Counted from the stretch's first letter, positions 16,904-35,720 are shown. The stretch is DNA of 55,118 bases from a virus (IMGVR_UViG_2563366941_000007:1-55118); one strand, 5' to 3'. Numbers and translations: made by a program. The notes: generated by a model from the sequence alone, not told the origin.

Positions 16904-17694
16904 TTACGCCAGTTGAACGGACACGAACTCATCAGGATCAGCCAGCAGCATCAGCGGTGCTGACTGAATCATGGTGAACTCTCGCGCCGGATCGCCGGAT
17001 GTCTTCCAGTTTTTCGGATAACGGGGAGACGCATTAATACCCTCACTCAATGCATCCGCATCCTGAATACAGCCATAGGTGCGCAGACCGCGTGCATGAG
17101 TGTTACCCAGCACCATCGTGTTGTCCGGCAGGAAGTTCTTTTTGACGCCGTTTTCCACGTACTGTCCGGAATACACGACGATGGCCACATCTCCATACAT
17201 TCCCTTATAAGACACCGCTTTGCCCAGGTCTTTTACCGCTGTCTCCAGTTCGGAATGAGAGCCGCGACGGGTATCCAGCTTCTCCCTGACGGCTTTGAAG
17301 GAACGGAACAGCGCCCAGCCTTTCGGATCAAACACGATGATATTCACCACGCCGCTGGCGTTCAGCGCGTAGGCTTCGATATCGTCGGTCGGATCATACG
17401 TGGACTTGTCACGCTTGCTCCACTCCGTGCCGCCGGACTGCGTGATGTTGTTGGCCGCACTGCGGCCCATATCCACCTCAACCGGATCGAAGGCTTCACC
17501 AGTCATGGTGTATTTGCCCTTGAGCACGGCAGAAACGGCCTGCATCTCTTCGACCTGAGCAATGGCCAGCTCTTCGTCACGCATGTTCTGCATGATGATG
17601 CGACGGCGGCGGTAAGCCGGGTCCGCCAGATTCTGCGGATCTTCATCCGGCAGGCGACGCAGGGTCATCTGCGGATTCACCTCATGCTTGGGTT
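16904..17694 (-). pseudogene. E: Major capsid protein E, C-terminal fragment (codons from ...KPKHEVNPQMTLRRL to the stop)
   Basis: Translation matches about 260 C-terminal residues of lambda gpE; the N-terminal 91 codons lie 11.6 kb away at 29261..29536. Confidence 0.9.
17685..17694. repeat. 10-bp direct-repeat core TGCTTGGGTT, left copy (element/E junction)
   Basis: Identical 10-mer at 29292..29301; both sit exactly where E homology breaks. Confidence 0.8.
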
Positions 17695-17766
17695 ACATGA
17701 GTCAAATATGAAAGGAACTGAATGATTTTTAATGAAATAAATGGCTCTCTCTATCAAAATACAGCT

Positions 17767-17792
17767 AAAAAGCAATACACGTAGCAATACAG
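17767..17792. repeat. Tandem GCAATACA(N) motifs (AAAAAGCAATACACGTAGCAATACAG), candidate integrase arm-type sites, left end
   Basis: Near-identical motif AAAAAGCAATACAAGCTGCAATACAG at 29139..29164 at the opposite end of the element. Confidence 0.45.
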
Positions 17793-17821
17793 CGCTTCGC
17801 AAAGGTATGTCACTATATCTA

Positions 17822-18790
17822 CTAGTGCCAACCAGAATACGAATATCTTTGCTTTGCTTCTTCTGGGCTCATACCCACTAGTAAAGATACTAATTCAAAG
17901 TCAGGTTGTGGAATTGGAATCAATGCAGCCAAATATGCTGGCTTATTGAGAACAATTGTTGATAATTTAGCTTTATTCACCTTAGATAACTCAATATTAC
18001 TTTCCGCTACCTTCGGGAACTCCATAATAAATGAATCAATTTCCCTTATGAGATAATCGATCAACGCCACTATACTTTCTGTCAAATCAATATATTTTGA
18101 CAACTCACTAGCACCAATTTCTTTCTTTATTTCATCCAATTTAATTTCAAACACTGGCTTGTCTTTACTGGCAATATTAGACAAACGTTTCTTTAAATCT
18201 GAATCAAGCTGATTCCTGACAATTAAACTTTTCAAAACAAAATTATAATTAAACAAAAAAGCATCAATTCGAGCAATATTCCTCCATGACTTTCCAATTT
18301 CTTCATCTGACGGCATAATAAGTTCATGTTTTAGTATCTTGTACTTAATAAAAAAAACAAACCTCTCAAATAGAGATTTATTAGCTGTGGGTATCTTTTT
18401 TATAAATGAAAGACGGCTAATATCGAAATTTACCTCCCCGGCGTTAAATAAAAATTCATTTATTGCCAGCGCTCTTAATATTGGATTTCTAGATCTCAAA
18501 CCAATATAACTACTTTTAATTCCCACAAGTGTATTTATCATCTGAAAAGAAACCATCATAAGCGTATTAGCAGAATTAAATTTCTCCGTTTCTATTTTAA
18601 TCTTCTCCTGCCTATTATTGATGCAATAAGCAGTTAAGCCTCCCATAAGCGCCGATAAAAAAGATAATGCAATAGGGAATACATAATCTTTTGTATAATC
18701 AACATCTGCTTTCAACATTAGTATTGCTTTAGCAATCAAAACTGCATCAGGGGTCATGTTAGAGCCGTCATTAAAAATTAAACACAACAC
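17822..18790 (-). CDS. Hypothetical membrane-anchored protein (N-terminal TM segments plus ~250-aa soluble domain), AT-rich cargo gene
   Basis: 322-aa ORF in a conspicuously AT-rich segment; hydrophobic stretches AVLIAKAILML and VFPIALSFLSALMGGLTAYCI near the N-terminus; no recognisable family by eye. Confidence 0.55.
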   Translation of the reverse strand: MLCLIFNDGSNMTPDAVLIAKAILMLKADVDYTKDYVFPIALSFLSALMGGLTAYCINNRQEKIKIETEKFNSANTLMMVSFQMINTLVGIKSSYIGLRSRNPILRALAINEFLFNAGEVNFDISRLSFIKKIPTANKSLFERFVFFIKYKILKHELIMPSDEEIGKSWRNIARIDAFLFNYNFVLKSLIVRNQLDSDLKKRLSNIASKDKPVFEIKLDEIKKEIGASELSKYIDLTESIVALIDYLIREIDSFIMEFPKVAESNIELSKVNKAKLSTIVLNKPAYLAALIPIPQPDFELVSLLVGMSPEEAKQRYSYSGWH

Positions 18791-19454
18791 CCATAAAATA
18801 TAACAGCTTATTGTTTAGAAAAGCAATATCATACACTCTATGATAAGCGTAATATCTGACAGGCATGGTGTGTTACGACACTTAATTAAACGTAATTTGC
18901 TAAAATTTTACACACAGAATCACACCAGGCTCTAACTCTCCTTTCATTACAATTGTAAGCATACAATTATCCTACCAGAACTTTATTGTTGAGCTCTCCC
19001 TTTTGAGCCCATCCCATAATGAATTGACGAAAGAACCGTATCTGTGGAGTAATCATTTCTGCGCGGTTCTATGTCGAAGACAAAATGTGGTATGCGCATC
19101 TAGTCAGAGGGAAAGCAATTTTTCAGGGAAATATCATCTCTACATGGTTAAAACAACCAGAAGAAGTTATCAAGCAAGTTGGGTATGAAGATTTTCCTAT
19201 AATAGTAACGAAACGGGTTTCACCTGAGCGGTTGTGTTCGATCCGCCACAATACGCATAGGATGCCCTGTAATCCGTATTCTGCTTACTCAACAGCTTAC
19301 CAGCAGGACTCGTAAGGCTGTTGCGATAGTGCAGAAGTAGGCCACGACCATAAAGTGAAGCCAGTGGCGCGTTATCGACTACTTTAGTGTAGAGCCTGAT
19401 TTCAACGCAAGCATGAGAGTTTTTTCTGGCGATAGGCCGTGACAAACAGCAACA

Positions 19455-19675
19455 AAATCAGAGAAAGGAAACGGCAGAGGCCAAAAAGCCCGTTTTCAGC
19501 GCCTGTCATTTCCTTTCTTTTCAGGGGGTATTTTAAATAAAAACATAAAGTTACGGCAAAGAAGAACGGAAAAGCCTTAAACCGGAAAATTTCCATAAAT
19601 AGAGAAAAACTGCGCGCCTGACGCCCCGTAACGTTCTGGATCGCCGGAAAGGACCCGCCAGCCAGAGCGGGCCCT
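19455..19675. other. cos-like packaging site of the satellite (cosB R-site and IHF-site homologs; divergent cosN)
   Basis: Aligns base-for-base with much of the prophage cos region 35480..35720 (e.g. GAAAGGAAACGRCAGAGGCC, TTTCCTTTCTTTTCAGGGGGTATTTTAAATAAAAACAT, CCTTAAACCGGAAAATTT); differs at about 5 positions within the cosN-equivalent segment. Confidence 0.75.
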
Positions 19676-19682
19676 AATTTCA

Positions 19683-20066
19683 TCAACCAATCAGCTTATA
19701 GCGACCATCCCGTGCATTGCGGCGTACACGCTCAATCTTGAGGCATAGCGCCGCATCTGGCTTTTTTGGGACAGGTACGCGGCAATATTCAGAAGCGCGA
19801 GGAATATTATTTATCCAGTCGATCACTTCACTTAAATACCAGGCCTTACGCCCTTCCGTAACCTGCACACGCTCCGGGAACTCTCCACTAGCCTCAAGGT
19901 TTAGCAGTGTACGACGACTCAGGGTTGTAATTTCCATCACCTGATTCATATCAACAAGGCGCTCGCTTAAACACATTTTGTCAGCGATAGCTTTTAATTC
20001 CTCTACAGCTGGATTCGGGTACATCATTTCGGCAATTGGCTTAAGGTCATTGTAATCATTCTGCAT
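19683..20066 (-). CDS. AlpA/Nu1-like HTH protein next to cos; candidate packaging-redirection (Rpp-like) or regulatory protein
   Basis: 127-aa ORF with HTH-like segment MEITTLSRRTLLNLEASGEFPERVQVTEGRKAWYLSEVIDWI; functional call is inference from position beside cos. Confidence 0.45.
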   Translation of the reverse strand: MQNDYNDLKPIAEMMYPNPAVEELKAIADKMCLSERLVDMNQVMEITTLSRRTLLNLEASGEFPERVQVTEGRKAWYLSEVIDWINNIPRASEYCRVPVPKKPDAALCLKIERVRRNARDGRYKLIG

Positions 20067-20077
20067 TGTATCCCCCT

Positions 20078-20419
20078 TTACACACGAGCCAGCGGCTGAA
20101 CAGAAATACCTGAGCCAACAAACGCTGCAACCTTTACTGACAGTTCTTTAACAGACTCAGGCCAGTTCAGAGCATCAACATTTAAGACACCTGTCTTATA
20201 GACCTGAGCCTGTGTTTTTTTCGCGGTGTCGATTTGTACAGCGGAAACATAAACCGCTTTACCTACGCTCGAACCATCCCATACCACCAGTGCACCTGTT
20301 GCATCTTCCTGCATCAGTGGCGTAAATGCAGGAATTACCCCTTTATTAGCTGAAAATATCCCCAGCGTAGTCACCAGTGCTTCAGTGCCAGCCATGAGTT
20401 CAGTGTAATGAGTAGCCAT
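20078..20419 (-). CDS. Head decoration protein, divergent homolog of lambda gpD
   Basis: 113 aa; shares PLM...VVWDGS...YKTG...WPE...AAFVGSGISV pattern with gpD (PLML...VAWDGT...YKSG...WPE...[10 protein letters not shown]). Confidence 0.7.
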   Translation of the reverse strand: MATHYTELMAGTEALVTTLGIFSANKGVIPAFTPLMQEDATGALVVWDGSSVGKAVYVSAVQIDTAKKTQAQVYKTGVLNVDALNWPESVKELSVKVAAFVGSGISVQPLARV

Positions 20420-20428
20420 TGCTCCCCC

Positions 20429-21469
20429 TTAGCCAATGCGAACGGTAACAAAACGATTGATGCGGGCCGGTATTGGCTGTGGTGCTGAATGTGTCTGCAC
20501 ATATTCAATAGCCGGATCACCAGGCACAATATAGTTTTTCGGTGCAAGTTCGGCTTTAGTCAGCCCCATTCGGATTAGCTCCGGATCCTGAATACCGCCA
20601 TAGGCGACAATCCCCTGAAGAGCCGTATTGCCAAGCACCATCAAATCAGGATCAAGGAAATGTTTTTCTGTTCCGTCCTCGTCGGTATAACGCCCGCTGT
20701 AAACAACAATCGCAACATCGCCCATATACCCTTTAAAACTCACCGAATCACCAAGGTCTTTAAGGGCCGTTTCCAGTTCGGAATTAGAACCACGACGGGT
20801 ATCCAAAGCCTCTTTTATCGCTCTGAATGAACGGTATTTCTTCCATACATTACCACCCATAATGATGATATTAGTGACGCCCTCACTAAATTCTGCGTAG
20901 CTCTCAATATCATCATTTGGATCAAAAGTTTCTTTATCCTTACCTGACCACTCAGTACCGCCAGACTGAGTGATGATATTTTGTGGTTTTATATTCCAGT
21001 CCAGCTCATAACGTTCAATACCATCGCCCTCAATGATATTTTTCCCCGTTGTGATTGCCTGAACAGCAAGCCATTCAATACGTGCACGAATAGCTTTAGC
21101 CTGATTTACAATCGCCTGTTTAACTTTAATATTACGCGCCCCAAAAGCATTGTATTGCTCAGGTGACACACCAACAGGGCGCACAGCTAACTTATTTGGA
21201 TCAATGCTGCTTTTCGGCTTCATATAACCTGGACGAATTGTTTTTGATTCGTATCCCTCATCTCGTGAAACTTTACTGCCCACCATAGGAGAGCAAAACG
21301 CCGCGATCGGGATATTTGGATCGTCGATCGTATCAAGAATAATGTCTCTCGATTCAAACATTACCGAGCGAGTGAAAAACAAACTGGTAAACAACGCATT
21401 TAATTTTTTTTGTACATCTACAGCATTAACCACCTGTACAAGCTGAGTAGGCGAATATAAATCAACCAT
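20429..21469 (-). CDS. Major capsid protein, divergent homolog of lambda gpE
   Basis: Shares PGYMKPK, QSGGTEWS, DTRRGSNSELETALKDLG, GDVAIVVYSG, MVLGNT blocks with gpE; start at 21469 is preceded by AAGAGGA. Confidence 0.8.
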   Translation of the reverse strand: MVDLYSPTQLVQVVNAVDVQKKLNALFTSLFFTRSVMFESRDIILDTIDDPNIPIAAFCSPMVGSKVSRDEGYESKTIRPGYMKPKSSIDPNKLAVRPVGVSPEQYNAFGARNIKVKQAIVNQAKAIRARIEWLAVQAITTGKNIIEGDGIERYELDWNIKPQNIITQSGGTEWSGKDKETFDPNDDIESYAEFSEGVTNIIIMGGNVWKKYRSFRAIKEALDTRRGSNSELETALKDLGDSVSFKGYMGDVAIVVYSGRYTDEDGTEKHFLDPDLMVLGNTALQGIVAYGGIQDPELIRMGLTKAELAPKNYIVPGDPAIEYVQTHSAPQPIPARINRFVTVRIG

Positions 21470-21751
21470 ACGCATCCTCTTTGCATTCATTAAAAATAAT
21501 TGTGGATATATGCTATCACCGATATTTGTCATGCGAACACATGCAACCGAGTGCAATGTTGTATAAAGTTTTGGGGTGACAACTTCAGTGCGGACAATTA
21601 GTGTTAATATCTTCACTCCCTTTGGTCGGGATTTATGTAGCATGCCGGAAAATTTATTTTTTCCGGCCTTTTTTTATTGGCAATATTTAAAACGGGGGTG
21701 ATGCTGCCAACTTACTGATTCAGTGTATGATGGTGTTTTTGAGGTGCTCCA

Positions 21752-22027
21752 GTGGCTTCTGTTTCTATCAGCTGTCCCTCCTGTTCAGCTACTGACGGGG
21801 TGGTGCGTAACGGCAAAAGCACCGCCGGACATCAGCGCTATCTCTGCTCTCACTGCCGTAAAACATGGCAACTGCAGTTCACTTACACCGCTTCTCAACC
21901 CGGTACGCACCAGAAAATCATTGATATGGCCATGAATGGCGTTGGATGCCGGGCAACAGCCCGCATTATGGGCGTTGGCCTCAACACGATTTTACGTCAC
22001 TTAAAAAACTCAGGCCGCAGTCGGTAA
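21752..22027 (+). CDS. insA: IS1 InsA
   Basis: 91-aa [43 protein letters not shown]... Confidence 0.95.
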
Positions 22028-22449
22028 CCTCGCGCATACAGCCGGGCAGTGACGTCATCGTCTGCGCGGAAATGGACGAACAGTGGGGCTATGTCGGGGC
22101 TAAATCGCGCCAGCGCTGGCTGTTTTACGCGTATGACAGGCTCCGGAAGACGGTTGTTGCGCACGTATTCGGTGAACGCACTATGGCGACGCTGGGGCGT
22201 CTTATGAGCCTGCTGTCACCCTTTGACGTGGTGATATGGATGACGGATGGCTGGCCGCTGTATGAATCCCGCCTGAAGGGAAAGCTGCACGTAATCAGCA
22301 AGCGATATACGCAGCGAATTGAGCGGCATAACCTGAATCTGAGGCAGCACCTGGCACGGCTGGGACGGAAGTCGCTGTCGTTCTCAAAATCGGTGGAGCT
22401 GCATGACAAAGTCATCGGGCATTATCTGAACATAAAACACTATCAATAA
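21946..22449 (+). CDS. insB: IS1 InsB reading frame (InsAB' transposase made by -1 frameshift)
   Basis: ORF ...[50 protein letters not shown]... typical of IS1 InsB. Confidence 0.9.
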
Positions 22450-22463
22450 GTTGGAGTCATTAC

Positions 22464-22913
22464 CTAAAACGGGATATCATCTCCCCATTGCTCATTATCT
22501 CCCACTGGTGGCTGGCTTCCTTGCTGATCTGCCTGTTGTTTTGCTCTGTTCAGTGCGTCAGTAGCCTGCCCCTGTTGGCCTTTATTGCCGCCCGGTCGCA
22601 CCGATCGCGCACTGATTACGCTGTCTGCGATAACCTGCCAGCCCTGCCGCGTTTCGCCGTTCTGTCCAGTCCACTGGCTCATCTGCATGTTACCCGCCAC
22701 GCTCAGGAGTTCGCCTTTGTGATGCTTTGCCAGCGCGTCGGCTTGTCTGCCAAACGCCAGGACAGATAACCACATCGTCGCCTGACCGTCATCCGACTGA
22801 CTGCAGGGCAGTGATACCGCCATACGCGCCAACGTCATGGGGGTGCCCTTGCTGGTCTGTTTTGTCTGCGGGTCGTCCACCGACCGCCCGTAAACTGATA
22901 TTTGCGCCGTCAT
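22464..22913 (-). CDS. Single-stranded DNA-binding protein (SSB-like)
   Basis: 149-aa ORF with OB-fold-like core and acidic C-terminal tail ending DDIPF; the present stop codon TAG is formed by the last base of IS1 plus the target duplication. Confidence 0.7.
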   Translation of the reverse strand: MTAQISVYGRSVDDPQTKQTSKGTPMTLARMAVSLPCSQSDDGQATMWLSVLAFGRQADALAKHHKGELLSVAGNMQMSQWTGQNGETRQGWQVIADSVISARSVRPGGNKGQQGQATDALNRAKQQADQQGSQPPVGDNEQWGDDIPF

Positions 22914-23155
22914 GCGGCCTGCTCTCCGGACTTAATATTGATTGTTGTCACTTCCTCCGCTTCAGCAATCTCCCGTTCGGTCAGAGTGGCAAAGTTTGCA
23001 GCCGCCGTTGTCATGAATGCGCTAATCAGTTCGGGATGTGCTTTCGCGTATCCTTCCCCGGCGTTGCGGTCGATGATTTTTATCGACACCCTTAACCAGT
23101 ATTCCGTCAAATCAAGGGCGTGCGATTGTGATTTTTTTGTGTGCTTCGCTGTCAT
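22910..23155 (-). CDS. Hypothetical protein (81 aa) upstream of ssb
   Basis: ORF with overlapping ATGA junction to ssb; no recognisable family. Confidence 0.4.
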   Translation of the reverse strand: MTAKHTKKSQSHALDLTEYWLRVSIKIIDRNAGEGYAKAHPELISAFMTTAAANFATLTEREIAEAEEVTTINIKSGEQAA

Positions 23156-23205
23156 AGGCTTTATCTCACAGCAGTAAATTAAAATTTTTGCGTTTTAACC
23201 CTTCA

Positions 23206-23430
23206 TCTGTTCACCTTTTGATATTTTCTCTTTTAATTCATAATGTTAATGGGTAAACAGTTTCACAAAAACTATTCACCAACTGTTCACCACTGTTCAC
23301 CCTTGAAGCTCAATAAACAATCAAAAAGGTGAACAGTGAATAGTTTGGTGAACAGTTCATAAATAACTGTTCACCCTATAATATACTGATATAAAAGATA
23401 TTTATGACAGGGTGAACAGTGGTGAACAGT
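23206..23430. repeat. Iteron cluster (about 9 copies of GGTGAACAGT / ACTGTTCACC in both orientations): candidate replication origin
   Basis: Repeats read directly at 23206, 23272, 23282, 23292, 23328, 23347, 23367, 23411, 23421; AT-rich spacers; immediately 3' of the rep gene. Confidence 0.7.
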
Positions 23431-23442
23431 TATTCCATAAGT

Positions 23443-25263
23443 TTAATTTTTGCTATCGTCATTAGTGACCGATACACATGATGGCATCCAGTCTTCTGAT
23501 TCCTCCGTCAGTGTCACGTTTGAACGCAAACCGTGCTTCGTTTTCCGTTTCATATACTCCCTGCCATATTCCGCCATTGCCCCCGGCATATCTTTACCGA
23601 AGCGCGTCAGTGTTACAGGTTTACCAAACCCATGTGCCCTCATATAAGCCAGATAGGCATGATAGAGATACCTGCGTGGGCTGAATGGCACAATTTCAGC
23701 ATTACCCACTAACAGGCCATCACACATTACCGATGCCATGAGATAGCCGCAGAAGTCCACCAGCGAATCCCCCTCTCGCTTTATCGCCAGTGCTTCTTCA
23801 GATTTCTGCTGCTCATATAACAGGCGTCTGGCTTCGTCCTGATCAGCAAACCGTGTAAGCAGATGACGAATCACTACCGCCAGCTCACCTTCTATTTTTT
23901 CCGCCAGCATCGAATCGCGTTCGTTCTCCGGTACAACTTCCGAAAAATTGAATATCACCCGACGACGTGAGATCCCCCCGCTGCGGTCACTGAATGACAT
24001 GGCGTTATTGTTAACCGCCAGCACTACTGCCGGAATACGCGTTGAATAGGGGGCTTTGTGTTTCGGGTCAATTGCCACCTTGTCACCGCCTGTAATGGCC
24101 TTAATCCCTGCCCCATCACCAGCGTAGCGGGTCATATCCGGCATGATAATCAGCGAAAAGCCAACCACTAACGCACGTTCCCTTGCATCTTCCAGCGCCT
24201 TCATGCTTGCTGATACTGTATTAGCCTTACCCGCCAGCATGGTGCAAATCTCCGCCATCACACTTTTACCACTTCCCCCCGGCCCTGTTACCTCAATGAA
24301 TAACTGCCAGTCGTACCGGTTCGCCAGCACCATGAATAATGCCGCCAGTACGCGATCTGCCTTGCGGTCATTCTCAGCCACCGAACGGCGCAACCACTTC
24401 CAGAAATTCGGCGCATGTGTTGCCAGCGTTTCCCCCTCTGCTGGTGGGCTGAAAGGTAATTCACTGGCAATTAACAACCAGTCGTTTTTGTTATGCTCCC
24501 GAAAATTACCAGTTCTGGTATCAAATACCCCGTTACTGAATCCAATCAGGTTACGGGCTGTATTCCCCATTACAGGCAAACTTAACTTCATGGTATCTAC
24601 CGCCGATTTAATAGCGTTCTGCGAATAGCTGATCTCCGCATCAATGAAAATCTGCGCCATAGCACGCTGTAACTCTTTATCCTGAACCGGCTCCCATACA
24701 ACGCCGTTGTAATGATGAACGGTGTCAGAGTCGGCATTGATTGCCAGTTCACCGCCATAATGTGCAAGGAGAACTTCACCGCGCTGGCTGGCCCCCATCT
24801 GATTCAACGCCAAAGATGAAGCACGCTCGTCATTTTTGCGCTCTGCCTTCTTCACTGGCAGTTCAATCACCAGACTTTCCCCATGCTCCGCTTCAGCTTT
24901 TAGGCCGACAAGGCGCGGAGTCCAGTCTTCAGGCTCTCGATCAACAAAGCTACGGTAACAACGTGCTTCCTTTACGCCTGCAATAGCAAGTAATGTCGCA
25001 ACCTTCGTCAGACTTTTCTCTGCAATCTTTCCGGCACGATAAACACGCACATAATGACGGCCTTCATCGATAATTTGCATATCATCCAGGTTTTCCAGTT
25101 GTTCCGTACCCAGAATGACTGGTGGTGTATCATCTGCTGCAATATGCTTACCTGCCCATTCATTCCATTCTTTTGCATGGCTCCAGGCATCACTGCCAGC
25201 AAAAATGATGACTTCCGTCATTTTGTCGCGCGGTTGGTATTTTAAGTTCGGAGCACGTTTCAT
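23443..25263 (-). CDS. Replication initiator, P4-alpha/D5-type SF3 helicase family (primase-helicase-like)
   Basis: 606-aa ORF with Walker A GPGGSGKS and surrounding D5/SF3-helicase-like sequence; adjacent to the iteron cluster. Confidence 0.7.
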   Translation of the reverse strand: MKRAPNLKYQPRDKMTEVIIFAGSDAWSHAKEWNEWAGKHIAADDTPPVILGTEQLENLDDMQIIDEGRHYVRVYRAGKIAEKSLTKVATLLAIAGVKEARCYRSFVDREPEDWTPRLVGLKAEAEHGESLVIELPVKKAERKNDERASSLALNQMGASQRGEVLLAHYGGELAINADSDTVHHYNGVVWEPVQDKELQRAMAQIFIDAEISYSQNAIKSAVDTMKLSLPVMGNTARNLIGFSNGVFDTRTGNFREHNKNDWLLIASELPFSPPAEGETLATHAPNFWKWLRRSVAENDRKADRVLAALFMVLANRYDWQLFIEVTGPGGSGKSVMAEICTMLAGKANTVSASMKALEDARERALVVGFSLIIMPDMTRYAGDGAGIKAITGGDKVAIDPKHKAPYSTRIPAVVLAVNNNAMSFSDRSGGISRRRVIFNFSEVVPENERDSMLAEKIEGELAVVIRHLLTRFADQDEARRLLYEQQKSEEALAIKREGDSLVDFCGYLMASVMCDGLLVGNAEIVPFSPRRYLYHAYLAYMRAHGFGKPVTLTRFGKDMPGAMAEYGREYMKRKTKHGLRSNVTLTEESEDWMPSCVSVTNDDSKN

Positions 25264-25526
25264 TTGTTACCTCCGGCAACTAACATTGCCCGAATTTTAC
25301 GGATATAGCCTGCGGCACGCCTCTGATTATCTGTCTTGCAATTTTTTACCAGAATGAAATCTCTTTCGAACTGCTGACGCGGCATAACACATTCAAAATC
25401 ATAACCATCACGCAAATAAGAGACACGACGATCATCAACCGAAATAATCTTTACCCGATAGCCATAGCTGTCTTTGAAAATATCCCCAAGGCTGATTTTT
25501 GAATGAGTGGATTTGACCGCTGGCAA
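25260..25526 (-). CDS. Hypothetical protein (88 aa), translationally coupled to rep
   Basis: ORF with ATGA overlap to the rep start. Confidence 0.4.
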   Translation of the reverse strand: MPAVKSTHSKISLGDIFKDSYGYRVKIISVDDRRVSYLRDGYDFECVMPRQQFERDFILVKNCKTDNQRRAAGYIRKIRAMLVAGGNK

Positions 25527-25554
25527 TAAAGCCAGAAAATTTATTTTTCATTTT

Positions 25555-25779
25555 TTATTCTCCGGTATAGCTCTGGTCGTGTATTTTTATAGCTTCATCC
25601 AGCTCTTTGATGACAGGATCAAGTAACGTAATTAACGCTCCAGCTAAATTAGCATCCCGTTCATCGTGTTCCGCATTTGTTGTCCCATCAAGCCAGGTTG
25701 ATAAGATTTCTCGCATATTTTTGCCACAAACGAGCGCGTTTTCAGCATGTGTCAGCACTTTAAAATAAAGATCATTCAT
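25555..25779 (-). CDS. Hypothetical protein (74 aa)
   Basis: ORF in the same operon orientation; overlaps the upstream ORF by 8 nt. Confidence 0.4.
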   Translation of the reverse strand: MNDLYFKVLTHAENALVCGKNMREILSTWLDGTTNAEHDERDANLAGALITLLDPVIKELDEAIKIHDQSYTGE

Positions 25780-25975
25780 GGCACACCTCCTGACGAATAC
25801 GGGCGGCGAATATCATCACGTAGCCAGTTGGGGATTGCAGCCGGGCTTCCTGTTCGCTGGCGGCCTCGATGGTAATCACGCGCGGTTGTGCCGTACTCAG
25901 GGCGATAAAACGCCAGATGTATTTATTCAGGTTGTGCGGGTCCCGCCCTTGCGGGTGTGTGGTATGATTTCTCAT
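25772..25975 (-). CDS. Hypothetical protein (67 aa), first gene of the leftward replication operon
   Basis: Start at 25975 is preceded by GAGG at good spacing; the ORF track's longer 104-aa version is probably over-extended. Confidence 0.4.
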   Translation of the reverse strand: MRNHTTHPQGRDPHNLNKYIWRFIALSTAQPRVITIEAASEQEARLQSPTGYVMIFAARIRQEVCHE

Positions 25976-26010
25976 AGCTACCTCGATACTGTTGCTATCG
26001 TTGGTGGTTA

Positions 26011-26056
26011 GAAGCCCGTTGGTGTTCCTAGCACCTTCGGGCTTTGCTTTTTTAAG
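26011..26056 (+). terminator. Two-tier GC hairpin followed by a T-run (terminator-like or small RNA 3' end)
   Basis: GAAGCCCG...CGGGCTTT stem enclosing GGTG...CACC, followed by GCTTTTTT; no plus-strand gene upstream. Confidence 0.3.
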
Positions 26057-26068
26057 TGCCTCCGTGTT

Positions 26069-26118
26069 AAGGTGGTCACCTAACAATGAAAAGGCTAATT
26101 CAATAGGTGGTCACTTGT
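26069..26118. promoter_or_regulatory. Direct repeats AGGTGGTCAC (two copies ~36 bp apart) upstream of the RHH gene; candidate operator
   Basis: AAGGTGGTCACCTAACA at 26069 and AGGTGGTCACTTGTCAACG at 26105, in the divergent intergenic region. Confidence 0.35.
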
Positions 26119-26174
26119 CAACGATCAAACGCGATAAAAGTCCTAAGGGTGATGGGCAATCTCCACAATTCAGA

Positions 26175-26306
26175 ATGCGAATTTCTCCAGAGCTAAAAGA
26201 GCAATTCGACAAAGAAGCGCAGAGCGACGGCATAAGCCTAGCCAACTGGCTTAAAGAATTAGGGCGCAAAGAGCTGCTACGGCGCGGTATTGAACCAAAA
26301 GGATAA
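26175..26306 (+). CDS. Ribbon-helix-helix (Arc/CopG-like) DNA-binding protein
   Basis: 43-aa product MRISPELKEQFDKEAQSDGISLANWLKELGRKELLRRGIEPKG has an RHH-like strand-helix-helix pattern; start chosen inside the longer ORF 25992..26306. Confidence 0.5.
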   Translation: MRISPELKEQFDKEAQSDGISLANWLKELGRKELLRRGIEPKG

Positions 26307-26333
26307 GAATAATTGAAGTCAAGGAGCTAACAC

Positions 26334-26690
26334 ATGAAATACGAATTCTTCGCAACAAGTAGCAGTAGTTTGGATGTATACATAGTCACTGTATCAAACG
26401 ATTCTGGCTCTCTAATCATGACTTGTAATTGTCCAGCAGGAAGTAAAGGTATTCTATGTAGACACCGTAAAGCTTTAATTACCGGAAAAATCCGCGGTAT
26501 ATTCACTCCCCCAAGAAGGAATAATCCCGAAAAATTACAAGAAGCTATAAATTTAATAGCCACATATGGCATAGATAAAACATTAAAGTTGTACACTGAT
26601 GAGTTAGAACGAGCAGAACAGACTTGGATAAGTGTTCGCGATAATTTGAGAGCAATGATAAACGCTCTTGTTGAACCACCTAAATATTGA
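26334..26690 (+). CDS. Small SWIM-type zinc-finger protein (CxCx9CxH), AT-rich cargo gene
   Basis: 118 aa; motif MTCNCPAGSKGILCRH; strongly AT-rich coding sequence. Confidence 0.5.
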   Translation: MKYEFFATSSSSLDVYIVTVSNDSGSLIMTCNCPAGSKGILCRHRKALITGKIRGIFTPPRRNNPEKLQEAINLIATYGIDKTLKLYTDELERAEQTWISVRDNLRAMINALVEPPKY

Positions 26691-26821
26691 ACTGTTCACA
26701 TTGCCTATCAGGCGATAACCTCGTATTCTGATTAAGGCTAACTATATACTCACATTGGCGACCAATTCTGGTCGCCTTTATCTACCATTTTTATAATATC
26801 ATAGATTAAGAGTGTTAATCC

Positions 26822-27676
26822 TTACCCCCTGAATGGAATTGATGAGGATTTAATTTCCACAGAACCAAATCCTCTTGAATCCAAAAACATTTTTATACCA
26901 GCCTCAATAAAATCATAATCGCTTGTCGGGCCAATTGTAATGCTTTTAATTGGTAACTTTCTATTATCTTTATTATTAATAATGATATAAGGGATGATAC
27001 CATTATTATTTATTCTAAATTTCACATCTGGCATTTGTATCCACGGAGTAAACACCAGTCTAAATTCATTTTCTTCGATAAAACTAGGATGTTTAAAAAA
27101 TGGGATATATTTAGATATAAATTGATACGTAGAGACCATTGTTACAAAATGATCATTCATTTCTTTAATGTTAATACCATTACAAGAAAAAAACTCATCC
27201 AACTCCTTACTCATCTTTGTAATATCGTCATTATTTGAATATATAACATCATGTGCAACACAATTTAAATAAATATTTTGACAAAAACTCACAAGTTCAT
27301 CCGCATCAAATTCAATGCAAACGCCCTGTTTATTTCCGTAACCTCTCCACTGACTTAACTTATCGTTTTCTTTACAAAAAGATATGCTATAAACATGTTT
27401 ATCAATCCCTTTTTCTTTTTGTAACTTCCCTTTCTCATACATGTCAAGAGACTTGAGCAAAATAGTTTTCTTATCTTTTGGGATGATATTATCATCAACT
27501 ATTTTAATTGTATTTCGAAAACATTCACATCCATGGTTAGACTCCTCTTTATCATTTAAGAAATATATATTTGTAGCCCATAAAGAATTAGAGTCTAATA
27601 TACCTTTCAAACCAAAAAGATCTGTATAATGAAATATAGCCACAATGCCCCACCTAATAGTTAAGTCGTTTCCCAC
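26822..27676 (-). CDS. DUF2971-like protein, AT-rich cargo gene (candidate defence-associated)
   Basis: 284 aa; N-terminal FHYTDLFGLKGILDSNSLWATNIYFLNDKEE fits the DUF2971 signature as recalled; AT-rich. Confidence 0.55.
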   Translation of the reverse strand: MGNDLTIRWGIVAIFHYTDLFGLKGILDSNSLWATNIYFLNDKEESNHGCECFRNTIKIVDDNIIPKDKKTILLKSLDMYEKGKLQKEKGIDKHVYSISFCKENDKLSQWRGYGNKQGVCIEFDADELVSFCQNIYLNCVAHDVIYSNNDDITKMSKELDEFFSCNGINIKEMNDHFVTMVSTYQFISKYIPFFKHPSFIEENEFRLVFTPWIQMPDVKFRINNNGIIPYIIINNKDNRKLPIKSITIGPTSDYDFIEAGIKMFLDSRGFGSVEIKSSSIPFRG

Positions 27677-27891
27677 TCACCTCGAATCCATGCCTGCACT
27701 TCTGAAAGACGATATGCAACAGCAGTGGAACCAATCTTGATCCGCTTAGGAAATTTTCCTTCCTTCTCCAGCTTCCAGCGTGTGCTGTTCGCAAGAGTGG
27801 TTAGCTCCCGACATTCTTTCTCACGGATCATACGATCGATGTTAGGAATGTACTCCAGACCCTTTTTATCAACAATTGCCATTTTTTTCAT
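27661..27891 (-). CDS. alpA: AlpA-family transcriptional regulator/excisionase-like HTH protein
   Basis: 76 aa; ...LTTLANSTRWKLEKEGKFPKRIKIGSTAVAYRLSEVQAWIRG matches the AlpA (CP4-57 regulatory) family; adjacent to int. Confidence 0.75.
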   Translation of the reverse strand: MKKMAIVDKKGLEYIPNIDRMIREKECRELTTLANSTRWKLEKEGKFPKRIKIGSTAVAYRLSEVQAWIRGEWETT

Positions 27892-27892
27892 G

Positions 27893-29128
27893 TTAACCAG
27901 CCTTTTGTTTGAGGATTGTCACTTTTGAATCAGCACCTGCGATGCTATTGAGATATGTAGTCCAGAGTTCCAGAGCATCCAGTTTTTTAGCCATAAACTT
28001 ACTCCGGTTGTAAACACCCGCCACGCCAGGTAGCGCATGGCCTAACAGTTGTTCTACTACATAAAATTCAACACCGAGATCACTTAGATGAGTAGATAGC
28101 GTTCTTCTAAGGTCGTGTAGTGACCATTGTTTTTCATGGCCCAAACGTTTACCGATTTTCCCCCCAATCTTGCTTACGCTTTCTCTAATTCGCAGACTTC
28201 CCAGCACATAACCAGTATGTCTTGTCTCTTCGTGAACATCCGTTACCCACTGTCGTAGAATTTCAGGTACTGGTCTGACGATTTCAACACCAGTTTTTGA
28301 GTGATCTTTTGGTACCGTCCAAACCCAACTTTCGAGATCCCATTCGCTCCATTCAGATAATCGGGCTTCACTCATTCGACATCCAAATACTGTACAAAGC
28401 ACAAACATTTTTCGCGTGTATTCAGACATTAGTTTTAAATCAGGCTCGACAAAAATTGCCTTCCAGAGCTGGCCCAGTTCGGCTTCATCCAGAACCCGAT
28501 CCCGCTTACCTGCAATCTGCCCCACATCACTCATGCGCAAATCCTTTAAAGCATCACATGTCGCGTACTGGCGTACCCGACAAAAACGAAGAGCTAATTT
28601 AGTGTCAGAAAAAACATACGCCGCCATAACTGGTGCATTACGTTTAATTCGGTCAAAACAGTCCAGCCATTCATATAGGTGAGTGTCATTTACAGGCAAA
28701 TGACCGATATAGGGAAAGATATGCTTTCGAAATCTGCCAAGCGTTACAGCATGAGTTTTACGACGCACCTTACAGTAATTTTCATACCAGTAATTTAGTG
28801 CATCCTCCACTGTGACCGGCTTTAAGCGTTCTTCAGCCTGAATCTTAATCTGGATACGCGGATCACGTTTGTCAGCCAACCAACCACGGCACTCGTCGCG
28901 CTTTTCCCTTGCCTGTTTGAGTGACATATCAGGATATTTACCCAACGTTAGCCAGACCGGAGCAGCCCGGCCACCTGCTAACCTGTAGAAGAAAACAAAG
29001 CTCACAGCCCCCTTGGTACTCACACGAATAGAAAGCCCCTTTCCATCAGCAATGGTGATCTGCTTTTCTCTGGGTTTCCCCAGATATCCTTTAAGCGCTT
29101 TGTCGCTCAGTTTGTTCTCGCCAGCCAT
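27893..29128 (-). CDS. int: Tyrosine integrase, P4-like family
   Basis: Start MAGENKLSDKALKGYLGKPREKQITIADGKGLSIRVSTKG... has a P4-integrase-like N-terminus; C-terminal HDLRRT...LLGH...Y catalytic-region motifs; sits at the element end. Confidence 0.85.
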   Translation of the reverse strand: MAGENKLSDKALKGYLGKPREKQITIADGKGLSIRVSTKGAVSFVFFYRLAGGRAAPVWLTLGKYPDMSLKQAREKRDECRGWLADKRDPRIQIKIQAEERLKPVTVEDALNYWYENYCKVRRKTHAVTLGRFRKHIFPYIGHLPVNDTHLYEWLDCFDRIKRNAPVMAAYVFSDTKLALRFCRVRQYATCDALKDLRMSDVGQIAGKRDRVLDEAELGQLWKAIFVEPDLKLMSEYTRKMFVLCTVFGCRMSEARLSEWSEWDLESWVWTVPKDHSKTGVEIVRPVPEILRQWVTDVHEETRHTGYVLGSLRIRESVSKIGGKIGKRLGHEKQWSLHDLRRTLSTHLSDLGVEFYVVEQLLGHALPGVAGVYNRSKFMAKKLDALELWTTYLNSIAGADSKVTILKQKAG

Positions 29129-29138
29129 TTTTAGCCCC

Positions 29139-29164
29139 AAAAAGCAATACAAGCTGCAATACAG
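29139..29164. repeat. Tandem GCAATACA(N) motifs (AAAAAGCAATACAAGCTGCAATACAG), candidate arm-type/operator sites, right end
   Basis: Matches the motif at 17767..17792; lies just upstream of the int start codon. Confidence 0.45.
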
Positions 29165-29260
29165 AGATGATTGCAACACACAGATAACGAGGAAAATTCA
29201 GTGAAAGCGCCAGATAAACTTATTCTTTATTATCAAAAGATTAAGTGTAAAAACCAGCAA

Positions 29261-29536
29261 CTACACGAAAGCCTCAGAAAGCCATGCTAAGTGCTTGGGT
29301 TTGACATATCCCGGCGTAAATTCAGAGGTGGAGCCGCCACGGGAGCGGATAACCTCACCGGAAACAATCGGCGAAACGTACAGCGCCATGTTTACCAGTC
29401 CCGGAATTTGTGAGAGATAGACTTTCTCCGTAGTGAAGGGATAGCTCTCACGGAAAAAGAGACGCAGAAACAGCGGATCAAACTTAAATTTCTGCTCATT
29501 TGCCGCCAGCAGTTGGGCGGTTGTGTACATCGACAT
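29261..29536 (-). pseudogene. E: Major capsid protein E, N-terminal fragment (91 codons) fused to 9 element-derived codons
   Basis: MSMYTTAQLLAANEQKFKFDPLFLRLFFRESYPFTTEKVYLSQIPGLVNMALYVSPIVSGEVIRSRGGSTSEFTPGYVKPKH then LAWLSEAFV-stop. Confidence 0.9.
29292..29301. repeat. 10-bp direct-repeat core TGCTTGGGTT, right copy (element/E junction)
   Basis: Identical to 17685..17694. Confidence 0.8.
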
Positions 29537-29555
29537 AAAAAAATCCCGTAAAAAA

Positions 29556-29571
29556 AGCCGCACAGGCGGCC
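29556..29571 (-). other. GC hairpin with minus-strand T-run between D and E (terminator/attenuator-like)
   Basis: GCCGC-ACAG-GCGGC stem flanked by an A-run on the plus strand. Confidence 0.3.
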
Positions 29572-35480: not shown

Positions 35481-35720
35481 TGTTCATTCCACGGCCAAAA
35501 ACAGAGAAAGGAAACGACAGAGGCCCAAAAGCTCGTTTTCAGCACCTGTCGTTTCCTTTCTTTTCAGGGGGTATTTTAAATAAAAACATTAAGTTACGAC
35601 GAAGAAGAACGGAAATGCCTTAAACCGGAAAATTTTCATAAATAGCGAAAACCCGCGAGGTCGCCGCCCCGTAACCTGTCGGATCGCCGGAAAGGACCCG
35701 CAAAATGATAATAATTATCA
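35480..35720. other. cos: Prophage cos site (cosB R-sites/IHF site and cosN; cohesive-end 12-mer AGGTCGCCGCCC at 35667..35678 on the plus strand)
   Basis: Reverse complement of the lambda left-end sequence GGGCGGCGACCTCGCGGGTTTTCGCTATTTATGAAAATTTTCCGG..., directly upstream of Nu1. Confidence 0.9.

What the first reader, a model, noticed from the sequence alone, without database searches (positions are those of the whole stretch)
16904..29563. Major capsid gene E of the prophage is split by an 11.6-kb integrative element; precise excision would restore E
Two same-strand fragments translate as the C-terminal ~260 residues (16904..17694, from ...KPKHEVNPQMTLRRL) and the N-terminal 91 residues (29261..29536, ending ...TPGYVKPKH then 9 foreign codons and a stop) of a lambda-type gpE. 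The break sits exactly on a 10-bp direct repeat TGCTTGGGTT (17685..17694 and 29292..29301). Joining the flanks through one repeat copy reads ...PGYVKPKHEVNPQ... in frame. A tyrosine integrase lies just inside one junction. This is the signature of site-specific integration into a protein-coding target inside a prophage structural gene, rather than the tRNA or intergenic chromosomal sites usual for P4-like and PICI elements.
Basis: partly seen in the sequence, partly recalled or inferred. Interest (0 to 1): 0.9.

Follow-up and report, generated by a model that had tools for sequence, protein, structure and literature searches.

The report
Known satellite embedded in lambda capsid gene
The capsid gene of a lambda-like prophage really is split by an 11.6-kb mobile element that could excise and restore it, but this is a near-identical copy of the "helper-embedded" phage satellite 11capE described in E. 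coli in 2023, so it is a correct observation of an already known system.

Summary
Gene E of a lambda-like prophage is split at a perfect 10-bp direct repeat (17685-17694 and 29292-29301). Deleting 17695-29301 in silico gives an intact 341-aa gpE, 97% identical to lambda gpE without gaps.

The insert is a phage satellite of the Gram-negative PICI type. It carries int, alpA, a primase, ssb, an iteron ori, its own E-like and D-like capsid genes, and a cos-like site.

It is the already published helper-embedded PICI 11capE (Tommasini, Mageeney and Williams 2023, PMC10111431).
- The crossover block is the same (AACCCAAGCA).
- The integrase is 409/411 identical and the primase 605/606.
- The family-specific doubled TGTATTGC motif lies 81 bp and 131 bp from the attP centre (published 81±2 and 132±2).

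That paper catalogued 201 copies at this site and showed precise, late excision after mitomycin C. An integrase-plus-junction query is at least 80% covered in 174 of 5,426 complete E. coli genomes.

This copy differs in having an IS1 between ssb and the capsid gene, and different cargo genes. Its helper also has a stop codon in protease gene C and a 7-bp frameshift in tail gene L, so restoring E alone would not give a viable phage.

One under-described feature is the satellite's cos. It has helper-like cosB, a non-canonical cosN, and no Rpp.

The parts
16904..17694 (-). C-terminal part of helper major capsid gene E (from codon 79/80 to the stop)
   Evidence: Frame 3 of the reverse strand reads PKHEVNPQMTLRRL.... 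It is part of the 341-aa reconstruction that is 97% identical to lambda gpE.
17685..17694 (.). att identity block, tail-side junction (TGCTTGGGTT; AACCCAAGCA on the gene strand)
   Evidence: It is identical to the published 11capE identity block 'aacccaagca'.
17772..17791 (-). Doubled arm-type motif TGTATTGCtacgTGTATTGC (upstream arm of attP)
   Evidence: One of only 2 matches in the window, against 0.04 expected by chance. It lies 81 bp from the attP centre; the published value is 81±2.
17822..18790 (-). Low-GC cargo ORF (322 aa), function unknown, in the variable 3' hotspot
   Evidence: No Pfam or PADLOC hit. Matches phrog_21267 of unknown function at 1e-132. Replaced by HEPN plus DUF262 genes or a restriction endonuclease in relatives.
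19453..19658 (-). cos-like site: helper-type cosB flank with a non-canonical cosN core (GGGCGTCAGGCG)
   Evidence: 89% identical over 207 bp to the helper cos region at 35496-35701. The alignment shows that the cosN core differs. The variant is also present in relatives.
19683..20066 (-). AlpA-family winged-HTH protein (127 aa) just upstream of cos
   Evidence: Pfam Phage_AlpA at 7.6e-9. PDB 8c3t (AlpA) at 2e-9. phrog_2790. 127/127 identical to the 11capE protein. No similarity to RppA.
20078..20419 (-). Satellite head-decoration protein (gpD homologue, 113 aa)
   Evidence: Pfam HDPD at 4.5e-15. 38% identical to helper D and 54% to the EcCICFT073 homologue.
20429..21469 (-). Satellite major capsid protein (gpE homologue, 346 aa)
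   Evidence: Pfam Phage_cap_E at 9.4e-41. 42% identical to helper E and 55% to the EcCICFT073 capsid protein. 343/346 identical to the 11capE protein.
21697..22464 (+). IS1 insertion (768 bp) with 9-bp target duplication TAAAACGGG (21688-21696 and 22465-22473)
   Evidence: InsA and IS1 transposase domains. Ends and duplication read from the sequence. Absent from 11capE, whose alignment blocks overlap by 8 bp. This junction is not found in 5,426 complete E. coli genomes.
22464..22913 (-). Single-strand DNA-binding protein (149 aa, intact; stop codon changed from TAA to TAG by the IS1 insertion)
   Evidence: Pfam SSB at 5.9e-15. The ORF ends in DDIPF. 143/149 identical to the 11capE protein.
23206..23435 (.). 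Probable origin of replication: about 9 iterons GGTGAACAGT/ACTGTTCACC in an AT-rich gap downstream of pri
   Evidence: Repeat families D1 and D2 and many inverted pairs. GC content 0.38. The position matches the ori reported downstream of pri in Gram-negative PICIs.
23443..25263 (-). Primase-helicase (D5_N, DUF5906 and Pox_D5 domains; 606 aa)
   Evidence: 605/606 identical to the 11capE protein.
25260..26086 (-). Small conserved genes: DUF4222, a 74-aa hypothetical, and an Icd-like/repressor-like ORF
   Evidence: Pfam DUF4222 at 2.8e-22. phrog_2196 and phrog_6196. RefSeq names in relatives: DUF4222 and Icd-like.
25992..27676 (.). Variable 'Bro-zone' cargo: an Arc/YlcI-like ORF (+), a SWIM zinc-finger ORF (+), and a low-GC DUF2971 ORF (-)
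   Evidence: Pfam SWIM and DUF2971, with only weak PADLOC candidate-system hits. This region is not collinear with 11capE. Other cargo sits here in relatives, for example an Abi-like gene.
27661..27891 (-). AlpA (excisionase/regulator, 76 aa)
   Evidence: Pfam Phage_AlpA at 3e-15. 73 identical residues to the 75-aa 11capE protein.
27893..29128 (-). Tyrosine integrase (411 aa from the annotated ATG)
   Evidence: Pfam Arm-DNA-bind_3 and Phage_integrase. 409/411 identical to the 11capE integrase.
29144..29163 (-). Doubled arm-type motif TGTATTGCagctTGTATTGC (downstream arm of attP)
   Evidence: It lies 131 bp from the attP centre; the published value is 132±2.
29292..29301 (.). att identity block, integrase-side junction
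   Evidence: The flanking sequence is identical to a published E:Phage_cap_E:80 attL and differs from the Eco567 (11capE) attL only in the E flank.
29261..29536 (-). N-terminal part of helper gene E (82 codons) fused to 9 element codons and a stop
31047..31049 (-). Context: premature TGA in helper prohead protease gene C (Gly69 to stop)
   Evidence: Translation. G to T at 31049 compared with two related helpers.
10276..10289 (-). Context: 7-bp tandem duplication (TGAACTT twice) that frameshifts helper tail gene L
   Evidence: tblastn splits L into two frames. Base-level alignment to lambda.
35658..35669 (-). Context: canonical cosN of the helper (GGGCGGCGACCT)

Best explanation
The 11.6-kb insert is a phage satellite of the Gram-negative PICI type. 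It belongs to the published helper-embedded PICI (HE-PICI) family whose type element is 11capE of E. coli NRG857c.

Its P4-type tyrosine integrase recombines the satellite attP with a 10-bp identical sequence at codons 79-82 of the helper's major capsid gene E. attP consists of the core AACCCAAGCA flanked by two doubled TGTATTGC arm motifs. The satellite therefore sits inside its own helper prophage, co-oriented with the late operon.

While it is integrated, E is truncated after 82 residues and the helper cannot make capsid protein.

On induction, events are inferred to follow the 11capE experiments. The whole composite excises and replicates. Helper late transcription then reads through Nu1-A-W-B-C-D and the E stub into int and alpA. 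The satellite excises late, leaving one copy of the 10-bp block and an intact E.

The free satellite replicates from its own iteron ori using its primase and SSB. It is presumed to be packaged through its cos-like site by the helper terminase into lambda-type heads, probably as about 4-mers (46 kb). This step is an inference and is unproven even for 11capE.

Shown here: the anatomy, the intact reconstruction of E, and identity with 11capE.
Shown in the literature for 11capE: precise, late excision.
Inferred: read-through activation, the packaging mode, and the role of the satellite's own E and D homologues.

In this particular copy the helper is additionally broken (stop in C, frameshift in L) and the satellite carries an IS1. 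The composite is probably no longer a self-sufficient phage-satellite pair.
For: - Split and reconstruction of E.
- Gene content: int, two AlpA-family genes, primase, SSB, gpE and gpD homologues, plus ori iterons.
- Published description of the same configuration, the same 10-bp block, and excision experiments: PMC10111431.
- Direct comparison with 11capE from NC_017634. Integrase 409/411, primase 605/606, capsid 343/346, D-like 112/113, HTH 127/127. DNA is collinear at 96-99% except for two cargo regions and the IS1.
- Doubled motif found only twice in the window, both co-oriented, at 81 and 131 bp from the attP centre against the published 81±2 and 132±2.
- The same E-fragment / element / E-fragment arrangement in unrelated genomes. 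An integrase-plus-junction query is at least 80% covered in 174 of 5,426 complete E. coli genomes. Of 34 IMG/VR loci, 27 show E junctions.
- The element-free site exists in lambda itself.
- A cos-like segment is shared with the helper, as the paper reports for 11capE.
- No terminator-like site on the gene strand between the E stub and int.
Against: - No experiment exists for this copy.
- The authors of the 2023 paper could not recover virions or plaques from the 11capE/50icd pair. Transfer and packaging are therefore unproven for the whole family.
- The cosN core of the satellite differs from the helper's at 5 of 12 positions, so cutting by the helper terminase is not assured.
- No C4/isrK immunity RNA was detected, and no Bro-N domain was found in the 'Bro zone'.
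- IS1 separates the replication genes from the late-zone genes and could be polar.
- The helper's C and L lesions mean that excision here would not rescue a viable phage.
Confidence: 0.93

Rival explanations
1. Dead composite. The arrangement arose by HE-PICI integration, but this copy is now an inert fossil. The helper prophage is decaying and the satellite is trapped, so no regulated excision or transfer occurs any more.
For: - The helper has a premature stop in C and a 7-bp frameshift in L, both essential morphogenesis genes.
- An IS1 has landed inside the satellite.
- No free attP form was seen in any of 34 viral-contig copies.
Against: - The satellite's int, alpA, pri, ssb, capsid genes, both att cores and both arm motifs are intact and 96-100% identical to the excision-competent 11capE.
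- IS1 disrupts no ORF.
- A superinfecting lambdoid phage, or another resident one, could still supply helper functions.
- This rival concerns the current activity of the copy, not its identity.
Confidence: 0.35
2. A P4-like satellite of a P2-type helper, or a generic integrative island, landed by accident at a secondary site that happens to lie in E. There is no functional relationship to the lambda-like prophage.
For: - The integrase has the Arm-DNA-bind_3 and Phage_integrase domains of P4-type integrases, by my recollection.
- The primase is of the D5_N/Pox_D5 type.
- Relatives annotate an Icd-like gene at the corresponding position.
Against: - The same site is used in many independent genomes. 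The top 40 hits in complete E. coli genomes all include two capsid-gene annotations, and the literature records 201 copies at this site.
- The element carries lambda-type E and D homologues and a lambda-type cos segment 89% identical to that of its host prophage.
- No Psu, Sid or Delta-type domains were found by Pfam.
- The arm motifs are positioned precisely around this core.
Confidence: 0.02
3. Assembly artefact, or a homologous-recombination chimera between the helper's E and the satellite's own E homologue.
For: Two E-family genes lie within 12 kb on the same strand.
Against: - The two capsid proteins are only 42% identical.
- The only DNA similarity between the element's capsid gene and helper E is a 55-bp stretch, at window 20751-20805 and 17223-17277, away from the junctions.
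- The junctions share just a 10-bp block, and the satellite's own capsid gene is complete.
- Identical junctions occur in finished genomes from many laboratories.
Confidence: 0.01

Closest known systems
HE-PICI Eco567.11capE (E. coli NRG857c, CP001855.1:1199333-1210409), site group E:Phage_cap_E:80; Tommasini, Mageeney and Williams 2023, NAR Genom Bioinform 5:lqad036
   Same: - Same target codons in lambda-type E and the same 10-bp identity block.
- Same attP arm motifs at the same spacing.
- Same gene order and orientation.
- Integrase 99.5% identical, primase 99.8%, satellite capsid 99.1%, HTH protein 100%.
- Same cos-like segment with the same variant cosN.

   Different: - Different cargo in the two variable regions. 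The window has DUF2971, SWIM and a 322-aa unknown protein; 11capE has a 178-aa hypothetical protein and HEPN plus DUF262 genes.
- An IS1 lies between ssb and the capsid gene.
- The helper here carries a nonsense codon in C, which the NRG857c helper lacks. It also carries a frameshift in L that is absent from lambda.

EcCICFT073, the model Gram-negative PICI (Fillol-Salom et al. 2018; 2019 Mol Cell, PMC6739421)
   Same: - Same backbone order in the part of EcCICFT073 that I fetched: Icd-like, DUF4222, pri, small ORF, ssb, capsid, decoration, then cos. The int end of that element lay outside the fetched locus.
- Lambdoid helper.
- Capsid 55% and decoration 54% identical.

   Different: - EcCICFT073 sits in the chromosome next to phoQ, so it interacts with its helper only in trans.
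- It has two cos sites with the canonical cosN but a non-helper cosB.
- It encodes RppA, a Nu1-like winged-HTH protein that retargets helper TerS.
- The window's element has helper-like cosB, a variant cosN and no Rpp homologue.

Satellite phage P4
   Same: - Size of about 11.6 kb, by my recollection of P4.
- A tyrosine integrase with the Arm-DNA-bind_3 domain, an AlpA-type regulator and a D5-type primase.
- Variable cargo positions. That they hold defence genes, as P4 hotspots do, is my inference from gene names.
   Different: - From general knowledge, P4 integrates in a tRNA-Leu gene, uses P2-type helpers, and remodels the helper capsid with Sid and Psu.
- None of those domains was detected here.
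- The late genes and cos here are lambda-type.

Capsid-forming PICIs (cfPICIs; Alqurainy et al., bioRxiv 10.1101/2022.09.08.507074)
   Same: The satellite encodes its own HK97-fold major capsid protein.
   Different: cfPICIs are reported to encode all the proteins needed to make and fill their own small capsids (abstract). The component list of portal, protease, connectors and small terminase is my recollection. This element has only the capsid and decoration genes.
Regulated gene integrity and 'active lysogeny' elements (for example the Listeria comK prophage, or the B. subtilis skin element in sigK)
   Same: An integrative element interrupts a coding gene, and precise excision at a defined time restores it.
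   Different: In those systems, from general knowledge, the interrupted gene is a host gene and the switch serves the host's programme. Here the interrupted gene belongs to another mobile element (the helper phage), and the timing serves the satellite (discussion of PMC10111431).

Membership tests
HE-PICI (helper-embedded PICI), site group E:Phage_cap_E:80 | Integrated inside a late gene of a lambdoid prophage, here the major capsid gene E at about codon 80 | tested here: met
   The break covers E codons 79-82. The flanks rebuild a 341-aa gpE that is 97% identical to lambda's. The surrounding genes are lambda Nu1 to J at 82-100% aa identity.
HE-PICI (helper-embedded PICI), site group E:Phage_cap_E:80 | int, alpA and pri co-oriented with the interrupted late gene | tested here: met
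   All lie on the minus strand, as do E and the helper late operon.
HE-PICI (helper-embedded PICI), site group E:Phage_cap_E:80 | Integrase belongs to the HE-PICI clade or subclade | tested here: met
   409/411 identical to the founding 11capE integrase. No phylogeny was run, but at 99.5% identity none is needed.
HE-PICI (helper-embedded PICI), site group E:Phage_cap_E:80 | att identity block aacccaagca (or a close variant) shared by attL and attR | tested here: met
   AACCCAAGCA at both junctions. The published block is identical.
HE-PICI (helper-embedded PICI), site group E:Phage_cap_E:80 | Two co-oriented copies of the doubled motif tgTGTATTGCantgTGTATTGCa, 81±2 bp upstream and 132±2 bp downstream of the attP centre | tested here: met
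   Exactly two matches in the window (0.04 expected), at 81 bp and 131 bp in the reconstructed attP.
HE-PICI (helper-embedded PICI), site group E:Phage_cap_E:80 | Four ordered zones: Integration, Bro (dynamic), Replication, Late | tested here: met
   The order is int-alpA, then variable cargo, then Icd-like-DUF4222-pri-ori-ssb, then capsid-decoration-HTH-cos. Caveat: no Bro-N domain and no C4/isrK RNA was found in the dynamic zone. The paper reports the immunity RNAs in only some members.
HE-PICI (helper-embedded PICI), site group E:Phage_cap_E:80 | Precise excision after induction of the composite, restoring the late gene | not testable with these tools
   Shown for 11capE by qPCR and deep sequencing. 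Here only the sequence-level prerequisites (int, alpA, att cores, arm motifs) could be verified as intact.
Gram-negative PICI (EcCICFT073 type) | 10-20 kb element with unidirectional int, alpA and pri, an ori downstream of pri, and often a capsid gene and cos | tested here: met
   11.6 kb (10.8 kb without the IS1), with the gene set and iterons as above.
Gram-negative PICI (EcCICFT073 type) | Rpp protein redirecting helper TerS to a satellite-specific cosB | tested here: not met
   There was no hit to the deposited Rpp structures, 6HLK and 6HN7, in the PDB search with the 127-aa HTH protein at E up to 1. There was no blastp similarity to CFT073 RppA at E up to 10. cosB here is helper-like rather than divergent. 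Only the HTH protein was compared directly; the other small ORFs were scanned only against Pfam, PHROGs and PADLOC.
Gram-negative PICI (EcCICFT073 type) | Helper-induced excision, replication and high-frequency transfer | not testable with these tools
   Experimental. Not achieved even for 11capE, since no virions were recovered.
P4-like satellites | Capsid-size and regulatory genes sid, psu, delta and epsilon, with a P2-type helper | tested here: not met
   Pfam scans of the element's ORFs gave no such domains. The late genes and cos are lambda-type.
Capsid-forming PICI (cfPICI) | A complete own head module (capsid, portal, protease, connectors, small terminase) | tested here: not met
   Only gpE-like and gpD-like genes are present. 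Some relatives add a Nu1-like terS, but this copy does not.

The most novel reading that the evidence does not exclude
The satellite's cos may be a deliberately altered packaging site adapted to life inside the helper genome. It keeps a helper-type cosB (89% identical) and the left half of cosN, but the 12-nt cohesive-end core is GGGCGTCAGGCG instead of GGGCGGCGACCT. It has no Rpp.

In 2.9 million viral contigs this variant was found only next to this satellite late module (34 of 34 hits).

If it is functional, three consequences are possible.
1. It could stop the helper terminase from cutting the composite concatemer at the embedded satellite before excision.
2. It could give the satellite cohesive ends that are incompatible with the helper's.
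3. It could act as an uncuttable TerS decoy.

Any of these would be a packaging-interference logic different from the Rpp mechanism of EcCICFT073. It might also explain why no 11capE virions were recovered. The published paper notes only that a 258-bp segment is 90% identical to the helper's cos region.
Probability: 0.2. Interest if true: 0.45.

Novelty: already known. Interest (0 to 1): 0.2.

Why it matters
The biology is interesting. A satellite holds its helper's capsid gene hostage and is switched on in cis by the helper's own late transcription. This makes it a clean example of one mobile element using 'regulated gene integrity' against another.

[quoted passage not shown] This window therefore adds one more, slightly degraded, copy.

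Its practical value is for annotation. Two 'partial major capsid protein' pseudogenes about 11 kb apart in a lambdoid prophage should be read as one interruptible gene plus a satellite, not as prophage decay.

How, and whether, these satellites are packaged remains open. The non-canonical cosN noted here is a concrete handle on that question.

Tried and rejected
- Rfam scan of 17000-30000 at E up to 0.1 for the C4/isrK immunity RNAs reported in some HE-PICIs: no hits.
- Search for an Rpp homologue. A PDB sequence search with the 127-aa HTH protein found only AlpA (8c3t), not RppC. blastp against the CFT073 small ORFs, including RppA, found nothing. Rejected.
- Search for a canonical cosN inside the element with up to 2 mismatches: none. 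Only the helper's own cosN at 35658 was found.
- Looked for free, excised or packaged forms among 34 IMG/VR contigs carrying the variant cosN. Every contig with att sequence shows integrated junctions, and none has a joined attP. Metagenome contigs of about 11 kb are simply the element plus 60-170 bp of E on each side.
- Looked for bona fide phages with the variant cosN. Lambda-like phages match the surrounding segment at about 93%, but the exact variant was seen only in satellites. The 'phages' collection cannot be pattern-searched, so this is not exhaustive.
- PADLOC scan of cargo ORFs for known defence systems: only weak hits to candidate systems (PDC-S31, PDC-S62). No assignment was made.
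- Tried to identify the source genome through the unique IS1 junction. It is not present in 5,426 complete E. coli genomes.
- Considered homologous recombination between the two capsid genes, and accidental secondary-site integration. Both were rejected (see rivals).
- Not used, because the answer did not depend on them: structure prediction, the large protein-database searches, and the metagenome and genome-contig scans.

Full report

Yes. On the minus strand, an ORF at 29261-29536 encodes the first 82 residues of a lambda-type major capsid protein (MSMYTTAQLL…TPGYVKPKH), followed by nine unrelated codons and a stop. The rest of the protein (PKHEVNPQMTLRRL… to the natural stop) is encoded at 16904-17694.

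The 10-mer TGCTTGGGTT occurs exactly twice in the window, at 17685-17694 and 29292-29301. Sequence identity between the two junctions does not extend beyond it.

Deleting 17695-29301 (11,607 bp) gives a continuous 341-aa ORF. That ORF aligns with lambda gpE over all 341 residues at 97% identity without gaps and matches Pfam Phage_cap_E at E = 7.6e-72. The block covers E codons 79-82.

The flanking genes are lambda Nu1, A, W, B, C, D on one side and FI, FII, Z, U, V, G, H, M, L, K, I, J on the other. They are 97-100% identical in protein sequence to lambda, except J at 82%. The flanks are therefore contiguous in an element-free phage, lambda itself.

**2. What is the insert?**

Its genes are almost all co-oriented with the helper late operon. 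In order from the E stub, the features are as follows.
- A tyrosine integrase (27893-29128).
- AlpA (27661-27891).
- A variable low-GC segment with DUF2971, SWIM and Arc/YlcI-like ORFs.
- An Icd-like or repressor-like ORF, a 74-aa ORF, and a DUF4222 ORF.
- A D5_N/DUF5906/Pox_D5 primase-helicase (23443-25263).
- An AT-rich gap with about nine GGTGAACAGT iterons (23206-23435), the probable ori.
- An 81-aa ORF and SSB.
- A gpE homologue (20429-21469) and a gpD homologue (20078-20419).
- A 127-aa AlpA-family HTH protein (19683-20066).
- A cos-like segment (19453-19658).
- A second low-GC cargo ORF of 322 aa (17822-18790).

This is the gene plan of a Gram-negative phage-inducible chromosomal island (PICI). 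It is not the plan of a phage or of P4.

**3. It is already described.**

[quoted passage not shown] The paper reports the following.
- An 11-kb satellite, 11capE, sits inside capsid gene E of a lambda-like prophage (50icd) of E. coli NRG857c.
- The attL/attR identity block is 10 bp long, and the satellite carries its own capsid gene.
- There are 201 further copies at the same site (named E:Phage_cap_E:80) and 290 copies at 13 other sites in late genes.
- After mitomycin C, the composite excises and replicates. The satellite then excises precisely, later (at about 2 h), restoring attB.

The supplement gives the block as 'aacccaagca'. It also lists attL sequences for this site group. One of them matches the window's integrase-side junction base for base. 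The Eco567 (11capE) entry differs from it only at two bases in the E flank.

I fetched 11capE from NC_017634 and compared it directly.
- Integrase 409/411.
- AlpA 73 identical residues (76 aa against 75 aa).
- Primase 605/606.
- SSB 143/149.
- Capsid 343/346.
- Decoration protein 112/113.
- HTH protein 127/127.

The DNA is collinear at 96-99% except for the two cargo regions and an IS1.

The family-specific doubled motif TGTATTGCnnnnTGTATTGC occurs only twice in the window (0.04 expected by chance). Both copies lie inside the element and are co-oriented. In the reconstructed attP they sit 81 bp upstream and 131 bp downstream of the core centre, matching the published 81±2 and 132±2.

Every testable defining feature of the family is therefore met.

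**4. How common is it?**
- The top 40 hits to the element in complete E. coli genomes all include two 'major capsid protein' annotations.
- Two that I opened show E C-fragment / element / E N-fragment inside a lambda-type head-tail operon, with different cargo. One has a restriction endonuclease, the other an Abi-like gene.
- A query made of the integrase gene, the junction and 60 bp of E is at least 80% covered in 174 of 5,426 complete genomes. The paper notes that a few close integrases instead sit at tRNA-Phe, so this number is an upper estimate for the E site.
- No functional follow-up to the 2023 paper was found in the library.

**5. How it most likely works.**

Shown here or in the literature:
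- Integration is by site-specific recombination at a 10-bp core.
- While integrated, E ends after 82 residues.
- Excision of the near-identical 11capE is precise and occurs after composite replication.

Inferred:
- The element is co-oriented with the late operon, and no terminator-like site lies on the gene strand between the E stub and int. Q-antiterminated late transcription should therefore read into int and alpA and trigger late excision. The satellite is replicated passively until then.
- After excision it can use its own ori, primase and SSB.
- Packaging is presumed to go through the cos-like site.
- At 11.6 kb (10.8 kb without the IS1), four copies come to 46.4 kb (43.3 kb). By my recollection that falls within lambda's packaging range. 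It is also consistent with the concatemer packaging reported for EcCICFT073.
- The role of the satellite's E and D homologues is unknown. They are 42% and 38% identical to the helper's proteins. In EcCICFT073 the capsid gene is dispensable for transfer.

**6. What is particular to this copy.**

(a) An IS1 (21697-22464, opposite strand) has a 9-bp target duplication, TAAAACGGG. It inserted exactly at the ssb stop codon. SSB remains intact (TAA became TAG), but the replication genes are now separated from the late-zone genes. This junction is not present in any of 5,426 complete E. coli genomes.

(b) The helper has two more lesions.
- A G-to-T change at 31049 creates a TGA at codon 69 of prohead protease gene C, compared with two related helpers.
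- A 7-bp tandem duplication (TGAACTT, 10276-10289) frameshifts tail gene L.

Excision would repair E, but this prophage would still lack C and L. The composite is probably a decaying pair that would need another lambdoid helper.

**7. A loose end worth noting.**

The satellite's cos-like segment is 89% identical to the helper's cos over 207 bp, including the cosB side up to about 16 bp before where Nu1 starts in the helper. The 12-nt cosN core, however, is GGGCGTCAGGCG rather than GGGCGGCGACCT.
- The variant is shared by 11capE and two other genomic copies.
- In IMG/VR it occurs in 34 contigs. All of them are satellites with this late module. One of them has an integrase only 52% identical to the window's.
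- Three relatives carry a Nu1-like terS right after the site.
- The model PICI EcCICFT073 does the opposite. It has a canonical cosN, a divergent cosB, and an RppA protein that retargets TerS.
- No Rpp homologue was found here.

I cannot tell whether this cos is cut by the helper terminase. The 2023 authors recovered no virions. Because the whole family is 96-99% identical, conservation of the variant is weak evidence for function. I rate the 'adapted cos' reading at about 0.2.

**8. Verdict.**

The novelty claim fails, because this is a member of a published family, nearly identical to its type element. Interest is low as a discovery. The window is still useful as an annotation lesson and as one more natural variant: an IS1-bearing satellite in a degraded helper.

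Noticed in passing
window 31047-31049 (helper gene C, minus strand): The lambda-type prohead protease gene C has a premature TGA (Gly69 to stop; G to T at 31049 compared with two related helpers). The nested Nu3 frame downstream is intact.
   Followed up: yes
window 10276-10289 (helper gene L, minus strand): A 7-bp tandem duplication (TGAACTT twice) relative to lambda frameshifts minor tail gene L into two overlapping ORFs (10216-10635 and 9930-10283).
   Followed up: yes
window 21688-22473: A 768-bp IS1, only about 94% identical to IS1A copies in E. coli, has a 9-bp target duplication and sits exactly on the ssb stop codon of the satellite. No ORF is broken, but the late zone is cut off from the replication zone. 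This junction is absent from 5,426 complete E. coli genomes.
   Followed up: yes
window 19453-19658 compared with 35496-35701: The satellite cos-like site keeps a helper-type cosB but has a non-canonical cosN core (GGGCGTCAGGCG). The variant was seen only in satellites carrying this late module (34 of 34 IMG/VR hits). No Rpp is present, unlike EcCICFT073.
   Followed up: partly
L019 3081-3614, L023 2050-2583, L036 841-1374: Some family members carry a Nu1-like small terminase gene immediately after the variant cos. Its first ~340 nt lie within a stretch about 93% identical to lambda, and the 3' part diverges. The window's element lacks this gene and has cargo in that place.
   Followed up: partly
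L028 (IMG/VR 2740892440_000002), 8873-10057 compared with 1270-3053: A relative has an integrase only 52% identical and a primase about 45% identical to the window's. It nevertheless carries the same capsid, decoration, HTH and cos module at 99-100% protein identity. This indicates modular exchange of the late zone between satellite lineages.
   Followed up: no
window 17822-18790 and 26334-27676: Two low-GC cargo positions (GC about 0.29-0.34) hold ORFs of unknown function: a 322-aa protein (phrog_21267), a DUF2971 protein and a SWIM protein. The same positions in relatives hold a restriction endonuclease, an Abi-like gene, and HEPN plus DUF262 genes. This suggests defence-gene hotspots, but no known system was matched here.
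   Followed up: partly
L019 1144-1914 and L023 113-883: Copies of the satellite are also found in a divergent E lineage (the C-terminal fragment is only 65% identical to this helper's E). This is consistent with the alternative core variants, such as agccgaagca, listed in the paper's supplement.
   Followed up: no
window 5054-8551, 4384-4983 and 36000-55118: The helper is mosaic. Its head and tail-shaft genes are almost lambda, but J is 82% identical and lom 46%. Q and O are only distantly related to lambda's (33-36%). Lambda's S, R, Rz, P and immunity-region proteins gave no tblastn hit.
   Followed up: no
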